DNA of 42,385 bases from Candidatus Woesearchaeota archaeon (lineage in GTDB: Archaea; Nanobdellota; Nanobdellia; Woesearchaeales; GW2011-AR9), in assembly GCA_013204355.1 (NCBI GenBank), contig JABMOA010000006.1, positions 1 to 42,385 of the forward strand. Direction: 5' to 3'. Below, piece by piece: positions 24,424-34,710 of this stretch; within the stretch, counting starts at the first letter, position 1; each line of letters opens with the position of its first letter. Both the position numbers and the translations under genes were made by a program. Below the pieces are notes generated by a model. That model searched no databases, had not been told where the DNA came from, and saw nothing but the letters and a program-made list of their open reading frames with translations.

Positions 24424-24520
24424 GGTATAAAAGAAAGAAAACCAATACTTATAAGTTTCTAAAAAGAATTGTCTCTAAATAGTAGTTAAGTTTATAAAGG
24501 AATTAATAAAATAATGACAA

Positions 24521-25015
24521 ATGAAAGAAAATCAGGAATTTTACCATACTTTTGAACGCTATCAAGAACAAGGTTTAGAACCATTTGTTCAACATGCTCT
24601 ACAATATCTTAGAGGTGAAAGAACTGTTCCAGTTTCCAAACCAAATGTTTTACTTGGAATGAAAGAAGTTTTACTTACATTTTCTGATAAATTATTACAT
24701 AACATAGTAGACACAGTAACAGATTTAAGAAAACCTTACGAAGTTGCAATCAAATATGGGTTTAGAGGTCATACTAATGGAGGAATTAACGGTATTTTCT
24801 TTCAAGAAAGAGAAAGTTCATTAGGTCCTAAAACAACAAAACTAATTCAACCTCATGAAACAAGATTACAACAAGATTTAGATATCTCATTAGAAAACCT
24901 TGATTCTTTAATTAATGTTAAAGTTGTATGGCATGAACCTTCCGGTAAAAGAATTGTTGGTGTCTATAACATGAATAATAACAGAATTTTTTTGTTAGAT
25001 TTTGCTCACTATTAA
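24521..25015 (+). CDS. Hypothetical 164-aa protein
   Basis: ORF with TATA gtttataaagg about 25 nt upstream. Confidence 0.5.
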   Translation: MKENQEFYHTFERYQEQGLEPFVQHALQYLRGERTVPVSKPNVLLGMKEVLLTFSDKLLHNIVDTVTDLRKPYEVAIKYGFRGHTNGGINGIFFQERESSLGPKTTKLIQPHETRLQQDLDISLENLDSLINVKVVWHEPSGKRIVGVYNMNNNRIFLLDFAHY

Positions 25016-25860
25016 GCTGCTTTAAGAAATTCTACAGGTATTCCTTTTGGGAATTTATATTCTCTTAATCCGTTAGATTGAGGAACAGGACCAACAACTG
25101 GTTTTAGCTTTGTTCTAAAATAAACAATATTATCGGTTGAACGCACACCAATTTCTTGAAAATAAGTTGATCTACGGTCAGTAGACATTGAATCAATTCT
25201 ATCAATAACAGCGGGAGTTGCATCAAATACAGGAGTTGGATTTTTATCAGAACTCAATAATCCTGTTGATTTCATATTACGAAACTCTTTTGAACTCATG
25301 ATTCTACCGTATGTTTTTTCTGATGGATAATAACTCTCATTTTCAAATTTATCAACTTTCTGATTTAATTGGTTTAATAAATCAATAAACCTTAAAATTT
25401 GATTTGACATTCTTTCAATACTAGATAAGAGATGAGCAACTTTATTTGCCTCATTTTTTTGAATTGCCTTATCAATTGATTGAAATTGCACAATTAATAA
25501 ATTTGTTAAAGTGAATGTATTATTCATATATTCCAAAATAATTCTCTCAAAATGAAGTTTTAAACCTGTGTAAGCATGAAAACTAGTTTCTAATTCTTTA
25601 ATCTCGCTGATGTTATCATTAAAAAATTTTTTAATATCATTTTCTATTTCACTCACTATTATACATTCATTAATTAATTTATTTATTATTATAGAATTAA
25701 AATTATGTTTATGTTTTATAACATATTTTCTTAAAATAAAACCTTGCCTTACTAAAAAATAAGAGTGAATTAGTCTGTCCTCTTTGAGAATATCCCTTAA
25801 TAAGATTTCAAGGTCATGAAGCTTTACAAACACAAAAGAAGTAAAATTTGTAGTGGACAT
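25012..25860 (-). CDS. Two-domain hypothetical protein: helical N-terminal region plus a C-terminal module resembling polymorphic-toxin C-terminal domains (unverified)
   Basis: The C-terminal ~100 aa read YGRIMSSKEFRNMKSTGLLSS...VFDATP...VYFRTKLKPVVGPVPQSNGLREYKFPKGIPVEF. Confidence 0.5.
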   Translation of the reverse strand: MSTTNFTSFVFVKLHDLEILLRDILKEDRLIHSYFLVRQGFILRKYVIKHKHNFNSIIINKLINECIIVSEIENDIKKFFNDNISEIKELETSFHAYTGLKLHFERIILEYMNNTFTLTNLLIVQFQSIDKAIQKNEANKVAHLLSSIERMSNQILRFIDLLNQLNQKVDKFENESYYPSEKTYGRIMSSKEFRNMKSTGLLSSDKNPTPVFDATPAVIDRIDSMSTDRRSTYFQEIGVRSTDNIVYFRTKLKPVVGPVPQSNGLREYKFPKGIPVEFLKAA

Positions 25861-25898
25861 ATATTAATAATAATAATCTCAAAACTATTTATATGTTT

Positions 25899-26498
25899 CT
25901 AAAACTCAATGATTTTCCCAGTTTTTCCAACATTAATAACTTTTGTTGATCCAATCACTTCTTCTATACCATGAGTTTCATGGATGTGACCACAAATGTG
26001 AATGTCTGGTTTGAATTCGTTGATTGCTTTTCTAACACCAGTTGATCCCCATCCCGGTATTTTCATGGAAATAATAGAATCGTTTGGTTGGACATGAGTT
26101 ACCATGAGTTTCTTTTTACAGTCTTTAATAGATTCGTGTGATTTCTTTAAAGTTTGAAAAAATTGTTCCTCATTTAATTGATGTAAACCTATATCTCCAT
26201 AACCACATCCAAATATGCCCACATCACCAAATCTTAGGCTGTATCCGTGAAGATTCTTAACTTGATATGTTTCTACCATGGCGTTGATTTCTGCTAAGCC
26301 TTCATGGTTTCCTGGGACAACTGCCACTTCTAGACCTTTTTCTTTGAATGGACCAATCATCCCTTGTTGGAATTGATCATGGTCAAAGATGTCACCAGCA
26401 AGAATCACAAGATCTACTTTTTCATCTGCTCCTCTCTTCGCCATTTGCTGCATGAAGTGACGATCGTTGTGTACATCTGAGATTGCGAGTATTTTCAT
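25899..26498 (-). CDS. Calcineurin-like metallophosphoesterase (YfcE/MJ0936-like)
   Basis: ISDVHND, AGDIFD, GNHE and CGHIHETHG motifs. Confidence 0.8.
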   Translation of the reverse strand: MKILAISDVHNDRHFMQQMAKRGADEKVDLVILAGDIFDHDQFQQGMIGPFKEKGLEVAVVPGNHEGLAEINAMVETYQVKNLHGYSLRFGDVGIFGCGYGDIGLHQLNEEQFFQTLKKSHESIKDCKKKLMVTHVQPNDSIISMKIPGWGSTGVRKAINEFKPDIHICGHIHETHGIEEVIGSTKVINVGKTGKIIEF

Positions 26499-26599
26499 GT
26501 GGTATTAAGAATTGTATGAGTTTATAAGGTTTTTGGATTGATTACTATAAAGTAGTTATCCTGGAAAGATTTATAAAGAATCATAATAATAACATAGAC

Positions 26600-27163
26600 A
26601 TGAAAATAAATAACATTATAGGATATATTGCAGCAGGATTAGCAGCACTAACTATTGCAGGTTGTGAAAGAGAATATGTCCCACAAAATCCATTAGTACA
26701 AGAGACAGTTGTTACACACGAGGATCCTAATGGAGGGATTGCGATATACCAATTTCATACTCTAAGAGACCCACAAATTAAAGGAGCTACATTTATTAAA
26801 CAATTCAAAAATGATTATTTAGGTCAAAAAACTTTAGCTGGGCAATATCAAGATTTAAACAAGAACGGAGTAGTAGATAAAGGAGATTTTTGCTTTGTAA
26901 CCCAAGGTGAAAGATATCAAATGCCATTAGAAGAACGTTTTGTATGTTCTACGCATATTCTTAGAACAATCCATACAGCTCATCCTATGAACTATGATGC
27001 ATCTAACCAATCAGAAAGTCTTACTGAAGATGGAAAACTTAAGATGTATACCACAGTAGGAATGTGGCATTTACGAAATGGAGAAAGAACTCCTCACCAA
27101 TCTATTGATCAAGCAAAAGATTGTATCAGGGAATGTCCTTCTAATTTACTAGAAAGACTTTAA
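26600..27163 (+). CDS. Putative lipoprotein, function unknown
   Basis: Signal peptide with lipobox LTIAGC. Confidence 0.6.
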   Translation: MKINNIIGYIAAGLAALTIAGCEREYVPQNPLVQETVVTHEDPNGGIAIYQFHTLRDPQIKGATFIKQFKNDYLGQKTLAGQYQDLNKNGVVDKGDFCFVTQGERYQMPLEERFVCSTHILRTIHTAHPMNYDASNQSESLTEDGKLKMYTTVGMWHLRNGERTPHQSIDQAKDCIRECPSNLLERL

Positions 27164-27214
27164 TAAAATATATTTAAATGGATTATCATAACTATTTTTA
27201 TAAATTTCTCAAAT

Positions 27215-27336
27215 GGGCGCTGTCCAGAAAGTCATAAAAATGTATACTACGTGCCGGCACACTTATTTTTTCTAGAAAAAGAAAAAATGTGCCTATTGCA
27301 GGCAGTATACAAAATAGAGAATTTCTGGACAGCACC
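27215..27336. mobile_element. MITE-like nested-palindrome element, copy B (122 bp)
   Basis: Terminal inverted repeats GGGCGCTGTCCAGAAA / TTTCTGGACAGCACC. The core is the reverse complement of copy A without the 55-bp insertion. Confidence 0.55.
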
Positions 27337-27379
27337 TACAAAAGAAAAAGTATTTATAAGAATAATATTTCCTTAAAAC

Positions 27380-28729
27380 ATGGGTAGTATAAAAATAAAT
27401 CATTCTAAACAAGAAATGCAAGCGTCATTACAAAAAGATATGGTAAAAATTCTTGAAAGCCTATATGGATGTTTGACAATTTTTAAAAAAAAATATAAGA
27501 CAAGAGATGAGACAAAATATATTGAATTAATTGAAATACAACAAAAATATGTAGAAAATTTTATGAATGCATTTTTGAGTGTCATTGCATTAACAAAAGA
27601 ATTAGAAGTCTTACCAAAATTACATTTAGAAAAAGATTCATTAGAATTAGCAGAAGCTAATGCGGGCCATATATACCAACAATTACATGATGAAATGCTT
27701 CCAATTTTAAAATCAGAAATTAAAGATAAAGATCCAATGTTTAGAAATAAATTGAAAAAATGGGAACAAAAGTTTTGGGCAAATTTGGAATTATCAATGA
27801 GGGGATTTCAAAAAGAGCTTGCTGTTGTAGCAGATAAAGCAAAAAGAAATCTTTCTAAAAAGCAGATTCAATCTGCAAGACAAATTCTACCACGATTTTC
27901 ATTTGCAAATATCCTTTCAATTCCTTATGGATTTAGACGAGCATTATCACTTTCAATGACTACAATAATGATTGCAATTAGTGCAGGGTGTAGTGATGAT
28001 CCAACTCCTAATGAACCCCCTCCTCATTCTCAAGGAGAGACAAGTACAGAATTAATAGAAACACCAACGTTAATAAAATTGGATGGATTAACTAAATATT
28101 TGGGAGATCTTAAAATTAAAAATATATCTGGGTTTCTCTTTACGGTGAATTCATCAAACCAAGGTGTTTCTAAACGATTAGGATGGAGACATAATGATAA
28201 AATTATTTTTGGAGAAGAAAATTGGGTCCAAAAATTAGAAGAGAATGTAACAAATGGAGATTATGGGCTTATTATAATCACAGGACATCATACATCAAAT
28301 ATTGATTATATTTATGGAAATTCTGGCGAAAAATTTCGTTTGGAAGATCTCCCCTATTCTGATAAAATAGAAGTTGTAATGTTTAGCGCGTGTAGAACTG
28401 CAGGAACTGCAGATTATGTTTCACGAAATGTTTATGCTCCCCTCATAAGAAGATTTCCTAATTTAAAAGTAATTATGGGATTTGAAGTTGCTTCATTAAA
28501 AGAAGAAGGTATTACTACTGCTATACTAACTGGATTTCAGGAGAAAAAATTTAGACCGTTATTAAAAGAAGAAAATGGTCCTGAGAAATTTGCAACTAAT
28601 GTTATTGAAATTAATAGAAATAGAGGATATGGTGTTGCATTCATTGGAAAAGATCAAAATTGGAATTACATTAGTTCATTTGATCAAAAAATAAAACCGC
28701 TTTCTCTAATTAACAATAGTTTACAATAA
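27380..28729 (+). CDS. Type-II membrane protein: helical cytoplasmic N-domain, one TM with a lipobox-like ISAGC, and an extracytoplasmic domain with a caspase-like His/Cys signature
   Basis: GLIIITGHH (His303/304) and IEVVMFSACRTAG (Cys338). Each catalytic candidate is preceded by a hydrophobic strand, as in clan CD peptidases and CHAT domains. Confidence 0.6.
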   Translation: MGSIKINHSKQEMQASLQKDMVKILESLYGCLTIFKKKYKTRDETKYIELIEIQQKYVENFMNAFLSVIALTKELEVLPKLHLEKDSLELAEANAGHIYQQLHDEMLPILKSEIKDKDPMFRNKLKKWEQKFWANLELSMRGFQKELAVVADKAKRNLSKKQIQSARQILPRFSFANILSIPYGFRRALSLSMTTIMIAISAGCSDDPTPNEPPPHSQGETSTELIETPTLIKLDGLTKYLGDLKIKNISGFLFTVNSSNQGVSKRLGWRHNDKIIFGEENWVQKLEENVTNGDYGLIIITGHHTSNIDYIYGNSGEKFRLEDLPYSDKIEVVMFSACRTAGTADYVSRNVYAPLIRRFPNLKVIMGFEVASLKEEGITTAILTGFQEKKFRPLLKEENGPEKFATNVIEINRNRGYGVAFIGKDQNWNYISSFDQKIKPLSLINNSLQ

Positions 28730-28800
28730 TTATGAAAATCATTAAAGCTGAATTTAGCCAAGCCCAAAAATAATAGTTGTCAATCACTCAAATTAAAATA

Positions 28801-28940
28801 AAAATCCCAACGGAGCAAGCTCCGGGGTATTAAATTAATTGGGATTTTTAATCTTGCTTTAATTCAATAACCGATGCGAGCATCGGGGTACGAGAAAACA
28901 ATGTTTTCTGGAGTTTTTTATAAAAACTATTGAACCCAGC
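28801..28940. other. Cluster of four or five hairpins in a convergent intergenic region; two are GC-rich and each is followed by GGGGTA
   Basis: AAAATCCCAA...TTGGGATTTT encloses CGGAG-CAAG-CTCCG+GGGGTA. Then come CCGATG-CGAG-CATCGG+GGGTA, AGAAAAC-AAT-GTTTTCT and AGTTTTT-TAT-AAAAACT. Confidence 0.35.
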
Positions 28941-28954
28941 AAGAAATAAAAAAA

Positions 28955-29668
28955 TTAGCGTTGAATATAAACAGGAATTGGTTTTCCATTATATGAAGGA
29001 ATACCGTTATCCCTCAGATTTAATAATGGTTCAAAAACACCTTTTTTCATTTCTTGGTCTCCTGCAATACATCCATTTGTCCAATCAAGAGAATTTCCTC
29101 CACCATGAATTCCAACTCCAAACCAAATATCTGGAGAATGATCTTTATTGAATGATCTTACTTCTTTATCGGTATCAATTGTACCATGTTCTTTTTCCCA
29201 TTCATTAATTAAATTTGTATTATTCTCATGTTTATAATCTTCTACTGCACGTGGAACTGTTGCAAGTCGCATCCAATATCCTCCCCACGTATCAATACGT
29301 GCGATTTGCTCAATATAGAATTTACCCTCAGGAGTTCTACCATCACCTGATGTAATTTTATCACCAAGGTCCCCTTGTCCAAGTGCAATTTTATAGGTCT
29401 TTATTTTTTCTTGATTATGAAATGTTAATGTACGGTCACATTTATCTATTAAAATGTAAATATTTTCTGTTGGAGAATACGTTTTTGTTTTTTCTGCACA
29501 AGCACCTGTTGTTTTATCCAATACAAAATCTGTTATTTCAGTACTTACACGTTCAGCCGTAGATGAAATCCGAGAAGAAGTAGAAGGTTTAATCAAATAT
29601 GGACCTGTAGCTACACCTAAAGAAAAAGCTACAAGTGCAGTTAATCCTTGCTTCACTATGCTACCCAT
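28955..29668 (-). CDS. Secreted or membrane-anchored L,D-transpeptidase (YkuD-domain) protein
   Basis: N-terminal hydrophobic anchor and catalytic signature GIHGGGNSLDWTNGCIAG (His...Ser/Thr-x-Gly-Cys). Confidence 0.75.
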   Translation of the reverse strand: MGSIVKQGLTALVAFSLGVATGPYLIKPSTSSRISSTAERVSTEITDFVLDKTTGACAEKTKTYSPTENIYILIDKCDRTLTFHNQEKIKTYKIALGQGDLGDKITSGDGRTPEGKFYIEQIARIDTWGGYWMRLATVPRAVEDYKHENNTNLINEWEKEHGTIDTDKEVRSFNKDHSPDIWFGVGIHGGGNSLDWTNGCIAGDQEMKKGVFEPLLNLRDNGIPSYNGKPIPVYIQR

Positions 29669-29770
29669 TTATGCTAATTAATTTAACTGATTTATAAACT
29701 TGCTGGTTTTGATTACCTGGGAGTAGTTAATGTGAAAACATTTATAAAGTATAAACAAAATATAAATAAA

Positions 29771-30871
29771 ATGTTAGAAAAATTAATGAGTGAAGAACGT
29801 CATTCAAAATTAGCTAGATTTCATCCTTCTTCTAAAAATATTTTTGTAGATAATGAAACTTTTGATTATGTAACTAATCAGGTTCTAAATACAAGAAATA
29901 AGAGGGGATGGAAAAAAATAGGAATTGGAAGTTTAAATGGGATTGCACATATAGGATATGGTGTATTAGAAGGTGTTTCACGTTTAACTGAAAGTGGATT
30001 GCGTTTAGCTGGAGGTTTAGTAGAACGAATCGGAAGTACTGCAGATGATAAACTTCAAGCAATCACTACAGACCAATATGATGATGAAATTAATTGGCCT
30101 AAATCTATTTCAAGAAATGCTAGAAAAATTTATGGAAATATAAAAAATGGATTTCAAAAATCAACATCACAGCAAGCAAGGAATAAAATGATGGTAGGTT
30201 TGTCGTTAATTGTTGGATTAAATTTAGGATATAAAATATTGCCCAATGTTGAATTTTTTCAAGATGATGGAATAACAGTAGTAGAACCGACTGAACCATT
30301 ACCACCTACCCCTAGACTACCACAAACTCAACCCTCACAAATAGATGTCAATAATTTATCAAATTTTAGTGACCAAAATGTATTAATTTATTGTGCAAAT
30401 GATGATGAAAGAATATCCGTAAGAGATACATTAAGATCGCGAAACGCACGGTTAACTCATGTAAGAGAAGGCATTTATAAAACAAGATTGAATGGATCAA
30501 ATGTTGATATCGTTGTACAAGGAAGTACAATTCCACAAAGTAATTATGGTGTAATTCAATTACGTGGTCATACCAGTGATATGATTCCTTTATCAGAAAG
30601 AGTTGAAAATAGTGGAAGAAGAAATCATTTATTAGTACTTGGTGGATGTAATAGTGCTGGTTACATTGGTGATTTAGCAAGATCAAATAGACCCGTTATT
30701 GGAAGTAATGGAACCCAAGACAGTTCACAGAACACATACCTATTAGCACAACTTTTACAAGAAGTTGGAACTGCACGCTCTTGGTCAGAATTAAGTGGAA
30801 ATATAAAAAGTCAATCAGAAAGAGCACGATATGAAACTACATTTCCAGGTGATACAAATTATAGACATTAA
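29771..30871 (+). CDS. Type-II membrane protein with a Pro-rich linker and an extracytoplasmic domain carrying a caspase-like His/Cys signature
   Basis: GVIQLRGHTS and HLLVLGGCNSAG, TM helix MMVGLSLIVGLNLGYKIL. The ATG at 29771 has TATA catttataaag about 25 nt upstream, so I prefer it to the GTG at 29732. Confidence 0.55.
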   Translation: MLEKLMSEERHSKLARFHPSSKNIFVDNETFDYVTNQVLNTRNKRGWKKIGIGSLNGIAHIGYGVLEGVSRLTESGLRLAGGLVERIGSTADDKLQAITTDQYDDEINWPKSISRNARKIYGNIKNGFQKSTSQQARNKMMVGLSLIVGLNLGYKILPNVEFFQDDGITVVEPTEPLPPTPRLPQTQPSQIDVNNLSNFSDQNVLIYCANDDERISVRDTLRSRNARLTHVREGIYKTRLNGSNVDIVVQGSTIPQSNYGVIQLRGHTSDMIPLSERVENSGRRNHLLVLGGCNSAGYIGDLARSNRPVIGSNGTQDSSQNTYLLAQLLQEVGTARSWSELSGNIKSQSERARYETTFPGDTNYRH

Positions 30872-31428: not shown

Positions 31429-31532
31429 GGAGTGAGAAATAGATGTTTCTTTATATAAATATCGGATTGGAAAAAGGAAAAAGTTCTAAATTTAAAGAAA
31501 GATTTAAAGAGAATTAATATCCCAAAATAATT

Positions 31533-32495
31533 ATGAGACGAAAGGATAGGCCTGTTATTAATCACAGCGTGGATGCCGTACGTGAAATTCTTGAAGTCGA
31601 TGATAGAGGTCAAGAAATATCTCAAGGAAAAGTGTGGGTAACTGGGGATGAATTTCCTAGATTACAAGGCCAAATCACTTCTGATGATACATTTGATGGG
31701 AAATCGCTTACAGATACTGCATTTGTACCTGGAAAAGAAGGCTATCATGATACAGATGTTGTTAACTCAGAAACTATGATTCTTGAAGAATTAGAACATA
31801 CCAAGATAAAGGATAGACTTGGTAAACATATTCAAAAGAAAAAAGATGAAGGTCCTTATAGAGATTATAATGATTTTTTTGAGAGGGAGTCAAAAAACCT
31901 AGATGAATTTAATTTGACATTATATCAACTTAATGTAAAACTTAAACAAAGAGACGAACTTTGTTCTAAAGATAGTCTTGAAGGAATGATTGAAAGGTCA
32001 AAAAATGTTCTTAATCAACAAAGTATTATGTTTGAAAAAACAACAAATCTTTGTGTATATTTTTATTTTAAGAAAGAAAAGGAAGGCTATTCTATAAATG
32101 TTTCAAGGGATTACCATAAAGATAGTGAGGGAATTTTTCTTATTAACATTGAAAATTGTGAAGATAAGCTCCGACGACGTACAATAGGATATGTTGTTAT
32201 TTATGAAAGAAAAATGCCCCTTCAAAATATCTCAAGATTATTTACTGCATATAATCAAGAAAAAGGCATTCATATCAAAAAGTTAATTCTTAATGAAGAT
32301 GGTTCAACAACTGAATATTTTGGTGGATTCACTCCAAGGATTCTAGAATCAGGAACAAGTACCAATATTGATTCTATAAATTTACCATTTTTGGAGATTG
32401 AAAGATTAGTAAATGATTACAAATCTAAAAACCCCCTGGATTCAAAATTTGAAGAAATTTATAAAACACTTAGAAAAGACATAGTTTTTCCGTAA
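31533..32495 (+). CDS. Hypothetical 320-aa protein
   Basis: Long ORF with no recognisable motif. Confidence 0.55.
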   Translation: MRRKDRPVINHSVDAVREILEVDDRGQEISQGKVWVTGDEFPRLQGQITSDDTFDGKSLTDTAFVPGKEGYHDTDVVNSETMILEELEHTKIKDRLGKHIQKKKDEGPYRDYNDFFERESKNLDEFNLTLYQLNVKLKQRDELCSKDSLEGMIERSKNVLNQQSIMFEKTTNLCVYFYFKKEKEGYSINVSRDYHKDSEGIFLINIENCEDKLRRRTIGYVVIYERKMPLQNISRLFTAYNQEKGIHIKKLILNEDGSTTEYFGGFTPRILESGTSTNIDSINLPFLEIERLVNDYKSKNPLDSKFEEIYKTLRKDIVFP

Positions 32496-32594
32496 CCTTT
32501 TTAAATGAGCCCACTTCTAACATCCTATTATATATCAAAAAAGAACCTTCTTTTTTGGGAATATTGAAATTATACAAAATTTCAACATGAGGTA

Positions 32595-32839: not shown

Positions 32840-33013
32840 ATGGTAAAAGGAACAGCAAGTATGGGTAAAAAAAGTGGGAAGAAAACCCACATCCCGTGTA
32901 AACGATGTGGCGGTTTCTCTTATCACGTTAGAAAGAAGAAATGTGCTTCTTGTGGATTCGGAGATACTTCTACAAAACGTAAGTATGCTTGGAATAAGAA
33001 AAATTCAGCTTAA
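32840..33013 (+). CDS. rpl37e: 50S ribosomal protein L37e
   Basis: MVKGTASMGKKSGKKTHIPCKRCGGFSYHVRKKKCASCGFG...; 57 aa with a C4 zinc ribbon, 11 nt after the Sm gene (a conserved archaeal pair). It is below the ORF-track cutoff. Confidence 0.9.
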   Translation: MVKGTASMGKKSGKKTHIPCKRCGGFSYHVRKKKCASCGFGDTSTKRKYAWNKKNSA

Positions 33014-33173
33014 ATTGTTTATATTTCTTTATTTTTATTAATATTATTTTTTTAATATTTTCTTAATTAAAAAGAATTGAATTTTCTAAATTTTATTGAA
33101 AATAGTTTCCTATGTTATTTGTGATTCAATAAAAGGAGGAAGGTTTATAAAAAACTTTTTTGATTTATCTTTT

Positions 33174-33713
33174 ATGACAACACTTGACACATTTATTCAG
33201 GAAGAAGATTATAAGATGTTTAATTCCCGTAGAATCCTCTGGAAGCTACGAGGTTGGGATATTAAACTTACAACCACAGTAGAACAAGGAACTTATAGGG
33301 ATTATTCTGATGCTATAACTTATGAAATAGGGGTTGCCTTGCGGGAATTTGTTAGAAATGGGTTTAAAGCAATTTACGGGGTTGGAGCTCCAATGTATGA
33401 AATAGATGATTTGGAAGCACAAGAAAGGGCGAAAAGTATACCTGCAAGACTTTCAATAGAACTTTCTCAAACTGAAAACAATTATGTTATCGCAGTTTCT
33501 GACAATGGACGAGGTATTATGCTCCAGGATCGTAATAGATTATTTGAAGAAGGATTCTCCACTTGTGGTACAACAGGAATAGGTTTACCAGCAGCACGTG
33601 AAAATGTTTGTCAGTTTGGAGGAAGAATTTACTTTAACACTCACTGTTGGGGAGACCATCTGGAAGATGAGAATATTACAGGAACCACTTTTTACTTGGC
33701 GTTACCAAAATAG
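33174..33713 (+). CDS. Stand-alone GHKL (histidine-kinase-like) ATPase domain protein
   Basis: EFVRNGFKA (N box), VSDNGRGI (G1), GTTGIGLPAA (G2), and no DHp/His-phosphotransfer region. The ATG at 33174 has TATA ggtttataaaaa about 25 nt upstream, whereas 33096 is a TTG. Confidence 0.6.
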   Translation: MTTLDTFIQEEDYKMFNSRRILWKLRGWDIKLTTTVEQGTYRDYSDAITYEIGVALREFVRNGFKAIYGVGAPMYEIDDLEAQERAKSIPARLSIELSQTENNYVIAVSDNGRGIMLQDRNRLFEEGFSTCGTTGIGLPAARENVCQFGGRIYFNTHCWGDHLEDENITGTTFYLALPK

Positions 33714-33806
33714 TCAAATGTTAGAACAGCTAAAAAATATAAACAATAGTCTCCTGGTAGATTATTCTAAAAAACAGCCATTAATTCATCAAAAATAATA
33801 AAAAAA

Positions 33807-34626: not shown

Positions 34627-34710
34627 TGTGGACGGCAGGGTTTGAACCTGCGTAGGCACTAAGCCACTGGGTCCTAAGCCCAGCCCGTTTGACCGCTCCG
34701 GCACGTCCAC
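34627..34710 (-). tRNA. tRNA-Leu (anticodon UAG), class II, no intron, CCA not encoded
   Basis: GTGGACG-TG-CCGGAGCGGTCAAACGG-G-CTGGG-CTTAGGA-CCCAG-long variable arm-GCAGG-TTCAAAC-CCTGC-CGTCCAC-A. Confidence 0.9.

What the first reader, a model, noticed from the sequence alone, without database searches (positions are those of the whole stretch)
27380..30871. Two membrane-anchored proteins with caspase-like His/Cys signatures flank an L,D-transpeptidase homologue in an archaeon
Seen:
- The proteins at 27380..28729 and 29771..30871 share one architecture. Each has a helical cytoplasmic N-domain, a single TM, a Pro/Thr-rich linker (DDPTPNEPPPH and TEPLPPTPRLPQTQP) and an extracytoplasmic C-domain.
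- Each C-domain contains a hydrophobic strand plus G-H (LIIITGHH; VIQLRGH). About 27-35 residues later there is a hydrophobic strand plus small-small-C-x-(T/S)-A-G (VVMFSACRTAG; LLVLGGCNSAG).
- Between them, on the opposite strand, lies a secreted YkuD-domain protein with the catalytic GIHGG...TNGCIAG signature.

Established: in clan CD peptidases (caspase, gingipain, legumain, CHAT) His precedes Cys, and each follows a block of hydrophobic residues. YkuD enzymes act on peptidoglycan stem peptides.

Inference: three surface-exposed Cys-nucleophile enzymes are clustered in an organism whose other markers are archaeal and which should lack murein. This may be an envelope or host-surface remodelling module, acting for example on a host wall, pseudomurein or an S-layer anchor. 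The cytoplasmic helical domains could transmit a signal. I have not seen this described.
Basis: partly seen in the sequence, partly recalled or inferred. Interest (0 to 1): 0.7.

Follow-up and report, generated by a model that had tools for sequence, protein, structure and literature searches.

The report
Caspase-like surface enzyme with YkuD partner

Summary
All three genes and every quoted motif are present as described.

Protein A (27380-28729):
- Its C-domain (aa 238-449) belongs to a rare family: 16 clusters among 1.84 billion representatives, no Pfam model.
- GHH and S-x-C are invariant in the 15 aligned domain sequences.
- AlphaFold (pLDDT 86.8) plus Foldseek place it with CHAT proteases, caspases, legumain and GPI transamidase.
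- Every full-length member has a signal peptide, lipobox or membrane anchor upstream, so the domain is extracellular.

The pair: a convergent gene of one coherent YkuD subfamily follows the A-type gene in six distinct loci. This pair, not the trio, is the conserved unit.

Protein C (29771-30871): its C-domain is an orphan. Similarity to A is marginal (shuffle p about 0.03; HMMER not significant) and its model failed (pLDDT 34). Its N-terminal anchor recurs with other heads, apparently including the A-type domain.

Context: in a sister genome (about 80-88% nucleotide identity in the flanks) A+YkuD are replaced by a VWA-OmpA protein plus an M23 peptidase, and C's head is swapped.

Best reading: a strain-variable surface-enzyme cassette, probably aimed at bacterial peptidoglycan. 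The target is inferred, not shown. Peptidoglycan-degrading genes in DPANN archaea are already published; this family and its YkuD pairing appear new.

The parts
26600..27163 (+). Conserved 187-aa lipoprotein-like gene (signal ending LTIAGC). It forms the left, conserved flank of the variable cassette.
   Evidence: ORF. 84% nucleotide identity to L001 up to position 27163, where homology stops. No Pfam family.
27205..27347 (.). 143-nt long hairpin in the spacer at the left cassette junction. Function unknown.
   Evidence: 50-nt inverted arms. RNA fold -57.3 kcal/mol, z=-9.35. No Rfam family. Not aligned to L001 or L004 by blastn, apart from its last 10 nt in L004.
27380..27940 (+). Protein A, N-terminal domain (aa 1-187), predicted cytoplasmic. 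It looks helical by eye; no structure was predicted for it.
   Evidence: No signal peptide. Conserved only in P0002. No family. Unrelated to the coiled-coil protein upstream of P0013.
27941..27991 (+). Protein A hydrophobic anchor (aa 188-204, ALSLSMTTIMIAISAGC), preceded by RR and ending in a lipobox-like ISAGC.
   Evidence: Kyte-Doolittle (15-residue window) 1.77. Conserved in P0002.
27992..28090 (+). Protein A Pro/Thr-rich stalk (aa 205-237).
   Evidence: Sequence. P0002 is 32 aa shorter and the stretch 28003-28102 does not align, so most of the stalk is missing there and it is length-variable.
28091..28729 (+). Protein A extracellular clan-CD-like (caspase/CHAT-like) domain, aa 238-449, plus stop codon. 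Candidate catalytic His303/His304 = 28286-28291; Cys338 = 28391-28393.
   Evidence: 16-cluster family. Invariant GHH, G, S-x-C. AF2 pLDDT 86.8, pTM 0.88. Foldseek top hits are CHAT, caspase-8/-7, legumain and GPI transamidase and viral caspases.
28955..29668 (-). Secreted or anchored YkuD-domain enzyme, convergent with gene A. His188 = 29105-29107; Cys200 = 29069-29071.
   Evidence: Pfam YkuD E=3.1e-14. N-terminal hydrophobic segment aa 8-26. Same subfamily next to A-type genes in five other distinct loci. 28% identical to E. coli DpaA/YafK over 98 aa, E=1e-6.
29709..29762 (+). Promoter-like element upstream of gene C. It is a 72%-identical copy of 26538-26591, which lies upstream of the 187-aa gene.
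   Evidence: Direct repeat D1. Both copies end 8 nt before their ATG and contain TTTATAAAG.
29771..30283 (+). Protein C N-terminal 'MLE' anchor module (aa 1-171): N-domain plus hydrophobic segment aa 140-158 (30188-30244).
   Evidence: 64% identical to P0004 over 160 aa. 71% nucleotide identity to L001 up to position 30283. The same MLE...YG..E..SR..E pattern occurs ahead of A-type domains in P0005, P0008, P0009 and P0011.
30284..30871 (+). Protein C variable C-terminal part: Pro/Thr linker plus orphan head, plus stop codon. His267 = 30569-30571; Cys293 = 30647-30649.
   Evidence: No homologue. Unrelated to the P0004 head. AF2 pLDDT 34. Marginal similarity to the A family.

Best explanation
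The interval 27164-30867 is a strain-variable surface-enzyme cassette of a Woesearchaeota (DPANN) archaeon.

Shown:
1. Protein A has an N-terminal domain without a signal peptide, one hydrophobic anchor, a flexible Pro/Thr stalk and a 212-aa head.
It has an invariant His-His after one hydrophobic strand and an invariant Ser-x-Cys after the next core strand.
3. Every full-length family member places the domain behind a signal peptide, lipobox or membrane anchor, so the domain works outside the cell.
4. The gene is followed by a convergent gene for a secreted YkuD enzyme of one coherent subfamily, in six distinct loci.
5. In a sister genome the same slot holds a VWA-OmpA (peptidoglycan-binding type) protein and an M23 peptidase.
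6. Protein C is a conserved 'MLE' anchor module whose extracellular head differs between the two genomes.

Inferred:
- The clan-CD-like head is a Cys/His peptidase or transpeptidase.
- The YkuD partner is an L,D-peptidase or amidase of the DpaA/Tlde1 type.
- Both act on the peptide part of bacterial peptidoglycan, or on proteins attached to it, at the contact face with a bacterial partner or prey, for attachment, wall opening or scavenging.
- C's orphan head serves the same interface, with unknown chemistry.
For: Family and fold:
- 16 hits in 1.84 billion representatives.
- Invariant G-H-H, G, S-x-C.
- AF2 pLDDT 86.8, pTM 0.88, with strand 60-64 followed by GHH and strand 95-99 followed by A-C.
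- Foldseek against PDB: CHAT of Craspase E=1.9e-4 (probability 1.0), SAVED-CHAT, caspase-8/-7/-3, CED-3, legumain, GPI transamidase. By my count 26 of the top 50 hits are clan CD.
- Foldseek against BFVD: viral caspases.
- Sub-threshold CHAT is the Pfam family hit by the most members, 3 of 15.

Export signals in family members: sequences.

Pairing with YkuD:
- Window; L004/L005; L011; L015/L016; L018 and L019.
- The six YkuDs share LG..DK..GD..TPEG and IHG.G..G...WT.GC.A.

Cassette replacement:
- blastn break points.
- L001 genes are VWA+OmpA (E=3e-13) and M23 (E=7e-22).
- In L004 the A-YkuD pair sits in a different neighbourhood, with DsrE upstream.

Module shuffling.

Literature:
- YkuD enzymes include hydrolytic LD-carboxypeptidases and the amidase DpaA (PMC10653827).
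- A YkuD-fold T6SS toxin, Tlde1, exists (PMC9638812).
- Tox-Caspase, Tox-LD-peptidase and OmpA occur as toxin heads (PMC3482391).
- Woesearchaeota/Pacearchaeota and other archaea carry peptidoglycan-degrading enzymes (PMC8204110, PMC9723730, PMC12352652).
Against: - No peptidoglycan-binding domain was found in A, C or the other A-type loci.
- The substrate is inferred only from the YkuD family and from the sister cassette.
- TM-scores to clan CD structures are modest (0.40-0.44).
- The catalytic His is followed by His rather than the usual Gly.
- Dyad geometry could not be measured.
- Three A-type loci with downstream sequence lack a YkuD neighbour (L009, L010, L012).
- The pair is convergent, so it is not co-transcribed.
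- Some long family members sit beside proteins whose N-termini look pilin-like by eye, which could point to a role on the archaeon's own surface.
Confidence: 0.5

Rival explanations
1. Self-directed envelope maturation. The clan-CD-like enzyme and the YkuD transpeptidase process, anchor or cross-link the archaeon's own surface proteins (S-layer, pilin-like fibres), in the way sortases, GPI transamidase or legumain-type ligases do. Bacterial peptidoglycan is not involved.
For: - Archaea lack murein.
- Clan CD includes transpeptidases, and GPI transamidase and legumain are among the Foldseek hits.
- In L011 and L015 the long family members follow a conserved 346/366-aa protein (28% identity, E=7e-44) whose KKGQ + hydrophobic N-terminus looks like an archaeal class III (pilin-type) signal by eye.
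- No peptidoglycan-binding domain is present in these loci.
Against: - The family is very rare (16 clusters).
- The cassette is dispensable. A sister genome at about 80-88% nucleotide identity in the flanks replaces it with an OmpA-type peptidoglycan binder plus an M23 peptidase.
- Every YkuD activity described in the paper read here (PMC10653827) acts on peptidoglycan stem peptides or on peptidoglycan-protein links.
Confidence: 0.2
2. Processing protease. The clan-CD-like head does not attack a foreign substrate. Instead it cleaves a partner, for example by activating or releasing the neighbouring YkuD enzyme, or by cutting its own stalk to shed itself. Caspase-like domains act this way in MARTX and polymorphic toxins.
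For: - Caspase-like domains are frequent releasing peptidases in secreted toxins (PMC3482391).
- The gene pairing with YkuD is conserved.
- A flexible stalk lies upstream of the head.
Against: - The domain is always the C-terminal-most domain with nothing downstream to release. Zhang et al. associate that position with toxin rather than processing function (PMC3482391).
- The YkuD partners show no obvious pro-region conserved across loci.
Confidence: 0.12
3. Protein C is not a clan CD enzyme. Its GH...GGC resemblance to A is coincidental, and its orphan head has another, possibly non-catalytic (binding), role on the same anchor module.
For: - HMMER profile of the A family against C is not significant.
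- hhalign probability is 0.8-13%; 10 of 300 shuffles score as well.
- No homologues exist to test conservation.
- AF2 pLDDT is 34.
- The same anchor carries an unrelated head in P0004.
Against: - The best local alignment in every method is exactly the GH / P-x-S-x-x-[IV]-E / hydrophobic-C-x-[ST]-A-G stretch, which matches family-conserved positions L87, P88, S90, C101 and T103.
- The C-type anchor appears to be fused to true A-type heads in P0005, P0008, P0009 and P0011.
Confidence: 0.5

Closest known systems
Clan CD cysteine peptidases, especially CHAT domains (Craspase Csx29, SAVED-CHAT) and caspases, legumain and GPI transamidase
   Same: - Alpha/beta fold.
- His precedes Cys, each at the C-terminal end of a hydrophobic strand.
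- Ala-Cys dipeptide in 13 of 15 members.
- Best Foldseek hits.
   Different: - No significant sequence match to any Pfam clan CD family or to PDB sequences.
- The motif is G-H-H instead of H-G.
- A beta-hairpin replaces the helix expected between the two catalytic strands.
- The domain is small (about 210 aa), always extracellular and C-terminal, and so far seen only on contigs named Woesearchaeota or carrying archaeal-type genes.
YkuD-fold hydrolases and effectors: E. coli DpaA/YafK (Lpp-peptidoglycan amidase), LD-carboxypeptidases (Csd6, Pgp2, Bd1075), T6SS toxin Tlde1
   Same: - YkuD domain with catalytic His and Cys.
- GD..(T/S)PEG and GC(I/Y)A motifs shared with DpaA.
- Weak Tlde1_dom hits on two partner YkuDs, L015 and L018.
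- Exported.
   Different: - Far below the DpaA equivalog cut-off (16.7 against 365 bits).
- The window, L004 and L011 members carry an extra helical insert ahead of the catalytic His.
- Encoded by an archaeon.
- Paired with a clan-CD-like gene rather than an immunity gene.
- Activity unknown.
Peptidoglycan-directed enzymes of archaea: GH23 proteins of Woesearchaeota/Pacearchaeota (PMC8204110, PMC9723730) and modular peptidoglycan hydrolases including M23 in Nanoarchaeia and Halobacteria (PMC12352652)
   Same: - DPANN host.
- Extracellular enzymes of bacterial-wall type.
- Patchy, strain-variable distribution.
- The sister cassette contains M23 and OmpA domains.
   Different: - None of those studies lists YkuD (0 occurrences in PMC12352652). 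No paper in the searched library combines YkuD with DPANN.
- No cell-wall-binding domain is fused to the window proteins.
Bacterial polymorphic toxin systems with Tox-Caspase, Tox-LD-peptidase or OmpA heads (Zhang et al. 2012, PMC3482391)
   Same: - Conserved N-terminal module with swapped C-terminal heads between close strains (C versus P0004).
- The same kinds of head domains.
- Located in a recombination-prone locus.
   Different: - No immunity gene follows; the next gene is a conserved translin.
- No known secretion-system N-domain.
- No orphan cassettes seen.
- Heads are membrane-tethered rather than injected.

Membership tests
Clan CD (caspase/CHAT-like) peptidases: protein A | Caspase-hemoglobinase alpha/beta fold | tested here: met
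   AF2 model pLDDT 86.8, pTM 0.88. Foldseek PDB top hits are CHAT (E=1.9e-4, probability 1.0), caspase-8/-7/-3, CED-3, legumain and GPI transamidase, with TMq 0.40-0.44. Viral caspases appear in BFVD.
Clan CD (caspase/CHAT-like) peptidases: protein A | Catalytic His precedes catalytic Cys, each directly after a hydrophobic beta-strand, conserved in homologues | tested here: met
   G65-H66-H67 and S99-x-C101 are invariant in 15 sequences. Model strands 60-64 and 95-99 end just before them.
Clan CD (caspase/CHAT-like) peptidases: protein A | His-Gly and Ala-Cys dipeptides at the dyad | tested here: inconclusive
   Ala-Cys in 13 of 15 members and Ser-Cys in 2. His is followed by His (GHH), never by Gly.
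Clan CD (caspase/CHAT-like) peptidases: protein A | His and Cys side chains within catalytic distance; superposition on a known dyad | not testable with these tools
   Model coordinates and residue-level Foldseek alignments are not exposed by the tools.
Clan CD (caspase/CHAT-like) peptidases: protein A | Significant sequence match to a curated clan CD family (CHAT, Peptidase_C14/C13/C11/C25 and others) | tested here: not met
   No Pfam or NCBIfam hit for A. CHAT only at E>=0.14 in 3 of 15 members. The profile against PDB sequences finds no clan CD chain.
Clan CD (caspase/CHAT-like) peptidases: protein C | Fold and conserved His/Cys | tested here: inconclusive
   Single-sequence AF2 gave pLDDT 34. 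No homologues of the head. hhalign to the A family: probability 0.8-13%, shuffle p about 0.03. HMMER not significant.
YkuD (L,D-transpeptidase catalytic domain) superfamily | Pfam PF03734 above gathering score, with catalytic His and Cys | tested here: met
   54.2 bits against 23.4. IHG (His188) and GC (Cys200) are invariant in six partner YkuDs.
DpaA/YafK (LdtF) amidase equivalog | NCBIfam NF040599 above its cut-off | tested here: not met
   16.7 bits against 365. Pairwise BLASTP to E. coli DpaA gives E=1e-6, 28% over 98 aa, with a shared GC(I/Y)A motif. This is a resemblance, not membership.
Polymorphic toxin/effector systems | Conserved N-terminal part with unrelated C-terminal heads between close relatives | tested here: met
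   C and P0004 are 64% identical over aa 1-160 and unrelated afterwards. The N-module appears related to those ahead of A-type heads in P0005, P0008, P0009 and P0011, on weak evidence.
Polymorphic toxin/effector systems | Cognate immunity gene immediately downstream; recognised secretion-linked N-domain | tested here: not met
   The downstream gene is a conserved translin in both genomes. The N-module has no Pfam, NCBIfam or PHROG match.
Modular archaeal peptidoglycan hydrolases (sensu PMC12352652) | Catalytic domain plus cell-wall-binding domain in one protein | tested here: not met
   No binding domain in A, YkuD or C. In the sister locus OmpA and M23 are on separate proteins.

The most novel reading that the evidence does not exclude
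Woesearchaeota may possess their own polymorphic surface-effector system with two components.
- A conserved cytoplasmic-plus-transmembrane 'MLE' stalk that presents interchangeable extracellular enzyme heads.
- A mobile two-gene unit: a clan-CD-like Cys enzyme plus a DpaA/Tlde1-like YkuD.

Together these would cut, or even covalently transpeptidate, archaeal surface proteins onto the peptidoglycan of a bacterial host. That would be an enzymatic basis for cross-domain episymbiotic attachment or predation.
Probability: 0.15. Interest if true: 0.85.

Novelty: new variant of a known kind. Interest (0 to 1): 0.55.

Why it matters
How DPANN archaea physically engage their partners is largely unknown, and whether some use bacteria as hosts or prey is an open question.

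What this finding offers:
- A compact, exported enzyme pair that recurs across divergent Woesearchaeota-type contigs.
- The pair sits in a slot that a sister genome fills with classical peptidoglycan tools (an OmpA-type binder and an M23 peptidase).
- That gives a concrete, clonable handle: two small Cys enzymes that can be expressed and tested on bacterial sacculi.

It also adds a distinct extracellular family to the caspase/CHAT fold. It shows that archaeal surface proteins can exchange heads on a conserved anchor, as bacterial polymorphic toxins do.

Tried and rejected
- Pfam, NCBIfam and PHROGs on A and C and on their isolated C-domains: no family.
- phmmer, and the A-family profile, against PDB sequences: nothing relevant.
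- Word-indexed homologue searches: only one relative each for A and C. The third search, with the family alignment, returned only a fragment.
- The search for related loci with the family alignment in GTDB genomes and JGI metagenomes: nothing. With C's head in metagenomes: nothing. With the C/P0004 N-module in genomes: only a second MAG (L013) with the same arrangement as L001.
- Single-sequence AF2 of C's head: pLDDT 34, so it was not used for fold search.
- My by-eye idea that the P0004 head is SLT/lysozyme-like: rejected as unsupported. hhalign against an E. coli Slt70/MltD/EmtA profile scored 13.1, and 31 of 100 shuffles scored as well. tblastn against phages found no match. The head of P0004 is therefore unknown.
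- A's N-domain against the 188-aa coiled-coil protein upstream of P0013: unrelated.
- Downstream neighbours of P0008 and P0009 as YkuD: no. One looks like the tail of an SMC/Rad50-type ATPase by eye; the other has no family.
- Rfam on the junction hairpin: no family.
- I did not feed C aligned to the A family into AF2, because that would impose the A fold rather than test it.

Full report
**1. What is in the sequence**

The three ORFs exist at the stated coordinates:
- A: 27380-28729, + strand, 449 aa.
- A YkuD-domain protein: 28955-29668, - strand, 237 aa.
- C: 29771-30871, + strand, 366 aa from the ATG. This is the NCBI model; a GTG at 29732 would give 379 aa.

NCBI names A and C as hypothetical proteins HQ489_00345 and HQ489_00355 of a Candidatus Woesearchaeota archaeon. 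Neighbouring genes are archaeal-type or housekeeping: Sm/LSM, translin, a metallophosphoesterase, and SRP54 and class I LysRS in the syntenic relative. The window is about 32% G+C throughout.

All quoted motifs are present:
- A: LIIITGHH at aa 297-304 and VVMFSACRTAG at aa 332-342.
- C: VIQLRGH at aa 261-267 and LLVLGGCNSAG at aa 287-297.

Each protein has a single moderately hydrophobic segment preceded by Arg/Lys and followed by a Pro/Thr-rich linker. The middle protein passes the Pfam YkuD gathering score (54 bits against 23.4). It has an N-terminal hydrophobic segment and the IHG...GC catalytic motifs.

**2. Protein A's head is a real, conserved, caspase/CHAT-like domain**

Word-indexed searches found only one relative, P0002, at 74% identity. 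A full HMMER scan of 1.84 billion cluster representatives with aa 215-449 found 16 proteins at E<=1e-3, nine of them at E<=1e-10. So the family is real but very rare.

In an alignment of 15 domain sequences (19-77% identical to A), the invariant columns are G-H-H (A His303/His304), one Gly, and S-x-C (Cys338). L-P-x-S ahead of the Cys strand is nearly invariant.

AlphaFold2 on this alignment gave a confident model: mean pLDDT 86.8, pTM 0.88. It is an alternating beta/alpha domain in which strand 60-64 runs into GHH and strand 95-99 runs into A-C.

Foldseek results:
- Against the PDB, the top hits are the CHAT protease of Craspase (8d9h_E, E=1.9e-4, probability 1.0) and SAVED-CHAT (8tl0). These are followed by procaspase-8, caspase-7/-3, CED-3, legumain-type endopeptidases and the GPI transamidase. 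By my count 26 of the top 50 hits are clan CD. TM-scores are modest, at 0.40-0.44.
- Against BFVD, the top hit is an uncharacterised myovirus protein (E=4.6e-6). Giant-virus and ascovirus caspases follow.

At sequence level the family is outside every curated model:
- No Pfam or NCBIfam hit for A.
- No clan CD chain found by the family profile in PDB sequences.
- Only sub-threshold CHAT hits, best E=0.14 in 3 of 15 members. CHAT is nevertheless the family hit by the most members.

Differences from the textbook clan CD pattern:
- The motif is G-H-H rather than H-G.
- A beta-hairpin lies between the two catalytic strands, where I expected a helix.

I could not measure the His-Cys distance, because model coordinates are not exposed.

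**3. The domain works outside the cell**

This is read directly from the sequences.
- P0013, P0016, P0017 and P0019 start with classical signal peptides and carry the domain at the C-terminus of 645-732-aa proteins.
- P0007 has a signal peptide ending in a lipobox (ASGGC).
- P0006 and P0012 have N-terminal anchors.
- A, P0002, P0005, P0008, P0009 and P0011 place the domain after an N-terminal domain plus one hydrophobic segment.
- The domain is always the last domain in the protein.

**4. The conserved unit is a pair, not a trio**

A convergent YkuD gene lies directly after the A-type gene in six distinct loci:

| Locus | A-type protein | Source |
|---|---|---|
| window | A | Woesearchaeota contig |
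| L004/L005 | P0002 | ENA metagenome assemblies |
| L011 | P0017 | a different Woesearchaeota MAG |
| L015/L016 | P0016 | TARA 0.1-0.22 um fraction; a tandem A-type paralogue is also present |
| L018 | P0019 | Logan assembly |
| L019 | P0014 | JGI metagenome |

The six YkuD proteins form one subfamily, with invariant LG..DK..GD..TPEG and IHG.G..G...WT.GC.A.

Three loci with downstream sequence lack the YkuD neighbour: L009, L010 and L012.

In L004 the pair sits in a different neighbourhood. DsrE lies upstream. A remnant that looks transposase-like by eye abuts the YkuD gene, which there has lost its signal segment. There is no gene C.

The window YkuD resembles E. coli DpaA/YafK (BLASTP E=1e-6; shared GD..TPEG and GC(I/Y)A motifs). 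It is far below that family's equivalog cut-off. Two partner YkuDs, in L015 and L018, give weak Tlde1-domain hits.

YkuD enzymes include cross-linking transpeptidases, LD-carboxypeptidases and the Lpp-detaching amidase DpaA (PMC10653827). A YkuD-fold T6SS toxin, Tlde1, is also known (PMC9638812). So a hydrolytic, wall-attacking role has precedent.

**5. The locus is a strain-variable cassette**

blastn against the syntenic contig of another Woesearchaeota MAG (L001, GCA_018656525.1; L013 has the same arrangement) shows 78-90% identity on both sides, with clean breaks:

| Window interval | Window content | L001 counterpart |
|---|---|---|
| up to 27163 | 187-aa lipoprotein gene and upstream genes | homologous |
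| 27164-29735 | A + YkuD | unrelated: a VWA + OmpA-domain protein and an M23 peptidase on the minus strand |
| 29736-30283 | promoter and first 171 codons of C | homologous, 71% identity |
| 30284-30867 | C's head | unrelated: the head of P0004 |
| from 30868 | translin onward | homologous |

The Pfam E-values for the L001 genes are 3e-13 for OmpA and 7e-22 for M23.

So two nearby genomes fill the same slot in two ways:
- Window: tethered clan-CD-like protein plus secreted YkuD.
- L001: OmpA-type peptidoglycan binder plus M23 endopeptidase.

Both genomes hang different heads on the same anchor. This is the main basis for inferring a bacterial-wall target. It fits published reports of GH23 transglycosylases, M23 peptidases and other peptidoglycan hydrolases in Woesearchaeota, Pacearchaeota, Nanoarchaeia and other archaea (PMC8204110, PMC9723730, PMC12352652, PMC11537232). 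None of these mentions YkuD, and no paper in the searchable library combines YkuD with DPANN.

**6. Protein C**

Its N-terminal 160 residues are 64% identical to P0004.

The same kind of N-module precedes genuine A-type heads in P0005, P0008, P0009 and P0011:
- It starts with invariant M-L-E and contains the Y-G-x-x-E-x-x-S-R-x-x-E motif, followed by one hydrophobic segment (alignment).
- hhalign gives E=4e-4 and probability 35% over the motif.
- The link is therefore plausible but weak.

So the 'MLE' module appears to be a reusable anchor with at least three head types.

C's own head has no homologue anywhere I could search. Its relation to the A family rests on a short collinear stretch: YG-hydrophobic-GH, then P-x-S-x-x-[IV]-E, then hydrophobic-C-x-[ST]-A-G. 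The tests gave:
- BLASTP E=0.17.
- hhalign probability 0.8-13%.
- 10 of 300 shuffles score as well.
- HMMER not significant.
- The single-sequence AlphaFold model is unusable, at pLDDT 34.

I therefore cannot say whether C is a clan CD enzyme. I rate it about even.

**7. Mechanism**

*Shown:* an exported, stalk-borne domain with a caspase/CHAT-like fold and an invariant His/Cys pair. It is genetically coupled to an exported YkuD Cys enzyme and lies in a replaceable cassette. The alternative version of that cassette encodes peptidoglycan-type tools.

*Inferred:*
- Both enzymes are thiol peptidases, amidases or transpeptidases.
- They act on stem peptides, cross-links or peptidoglycan-attached proteins of a bacterial partner or prey at the cell-cell interface.

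*Rivals:*
- Maturation or anchoring of the archaeon's own surface proteins. This is supported by the transpeptidases among the fold hits. It is also supported by neighbours of the long family members whose N-termini look pilin-like by eye.
- A processing role for the caspase-like head.

Bacterial polymorphic toxins already use Tox-Caspase, Tox-LD-peptidase and OmpA heads (PMC3482391). That is the nearest conceptual precedent. Here, however, no immunity gene and no recognised secretion domain is present.

**8. Verdict**

- The A-type family and its pairing with YkuD appear undescribed. They are a new variant within known kinds (the clan CD fold; archaeal wall-directed enzymes), not a new category.
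- Interest is moderate to good, because the finding provides small, clonable enzymes for testing how DPANN archaea engage bacterial walls.

Noticed in passing
window 27205-27347: A 143-nt long hairpin with 50-nt arms; GCTGTCCAGAAA is exact in both arms. It sits in the spacer between the 187-aa lipoprotein gene and gene A, exactly at the left junction of the variable cassette. RNA fold is -57.3 kcal/mol, z=-9.35. It has no Rfam family, and blastn does not align it to the syntenic relative L001 or to L004 (apart from its last 10 nt). It could be a terminator, a small RNA, or a MITE-like or recombination scar.
   Followed up: partly
window 26538-26591 and 29709-29762: A 54-nt direct repeat, 72% identical. 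Each copy ends 8 nt before the ATG of the 187-aa lipoprotein gene and of gene C respectively, and each contains a TATA-like TTTATAAAG. This suggests a shared promoter architecture and possibly co-regulation. It also supports ATG 29771, not GTG 29732, as the start of C.
   Followed up: no
window 27977-27991 (A aa 200-204): The hydrophobic anchor of A ends in a lipobox-like ISAGC, which is conserved in P0002. Family member P0007 has a true N-terminal signal plus ASGGC. An internal lipobox after a 185-aa N-domain is odd and may hint at processing or lipidation.
   Followed up: no
window 24425-25900; 31462-32587; 33004-33796: Three further segments differ from the otherwise 78-90% identical relative L001.
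- 24425-25900: two ORFs (164 aa and 282 aa) with no family. L001 has 350-aa and 158-aa genes in their place.
- 31462-32587: a 320-aa ORF that is absent from L001.
- 33004-33796: a divergent 205-aa ORF.
The neighbourhood as a whole is a hot spot of gene turnover.
   Followed up: partly
L004 2162-3152: In the contig carrying P0002, the YkuD gene lacks the N-terminal signal segment. It abuts a 113-aa ORF that looks by eye like the C-terminal remnant of an IS4/IS1634-type transposase (no Pfam hit). The gene upstream of the pair is DsrE rather than the 187-aa lipoprotein gene. The A-YkuD pair therefore appears to have moved as a unit.
   Followed up: partly
L015 4892-10049; L011 6951-10199: The long secreted family members sit in apparent operons. 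A conserved 346/366-aa protein (28% identity, E=7e-44) precedes them, and its N-terminus (KKGQ + hydrophobic stretch) resembles an archaeal class III, pilin-type signal. L015 additionally has two tandem A-type paralogues (671 aa and 682 aa, 39% identical).
   Followed up: partly
P0011 (239 aa, metagenomic): This protein has an MLE-type anchor followed by an A-type domain that lacks the whole N-terminal half, including GHH. It joins directly at the LPSS...SAC segment. It is probably a decayed or recombined copy.
   Followed up: no
L001 11712-12401-equivalent (L002 11712-12401; L003 10333-11022; also the JGI variant without DNA): Some variants of the sister contig carry a 229-aa LAGLIDADG homing-endonuclease gene between the 222-aa gene and LysRS. 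Others, including the L001 gene calls, do not. In the window, the corresponding interval holds tRNA-Leu (34627-34710).
   Followed up: no
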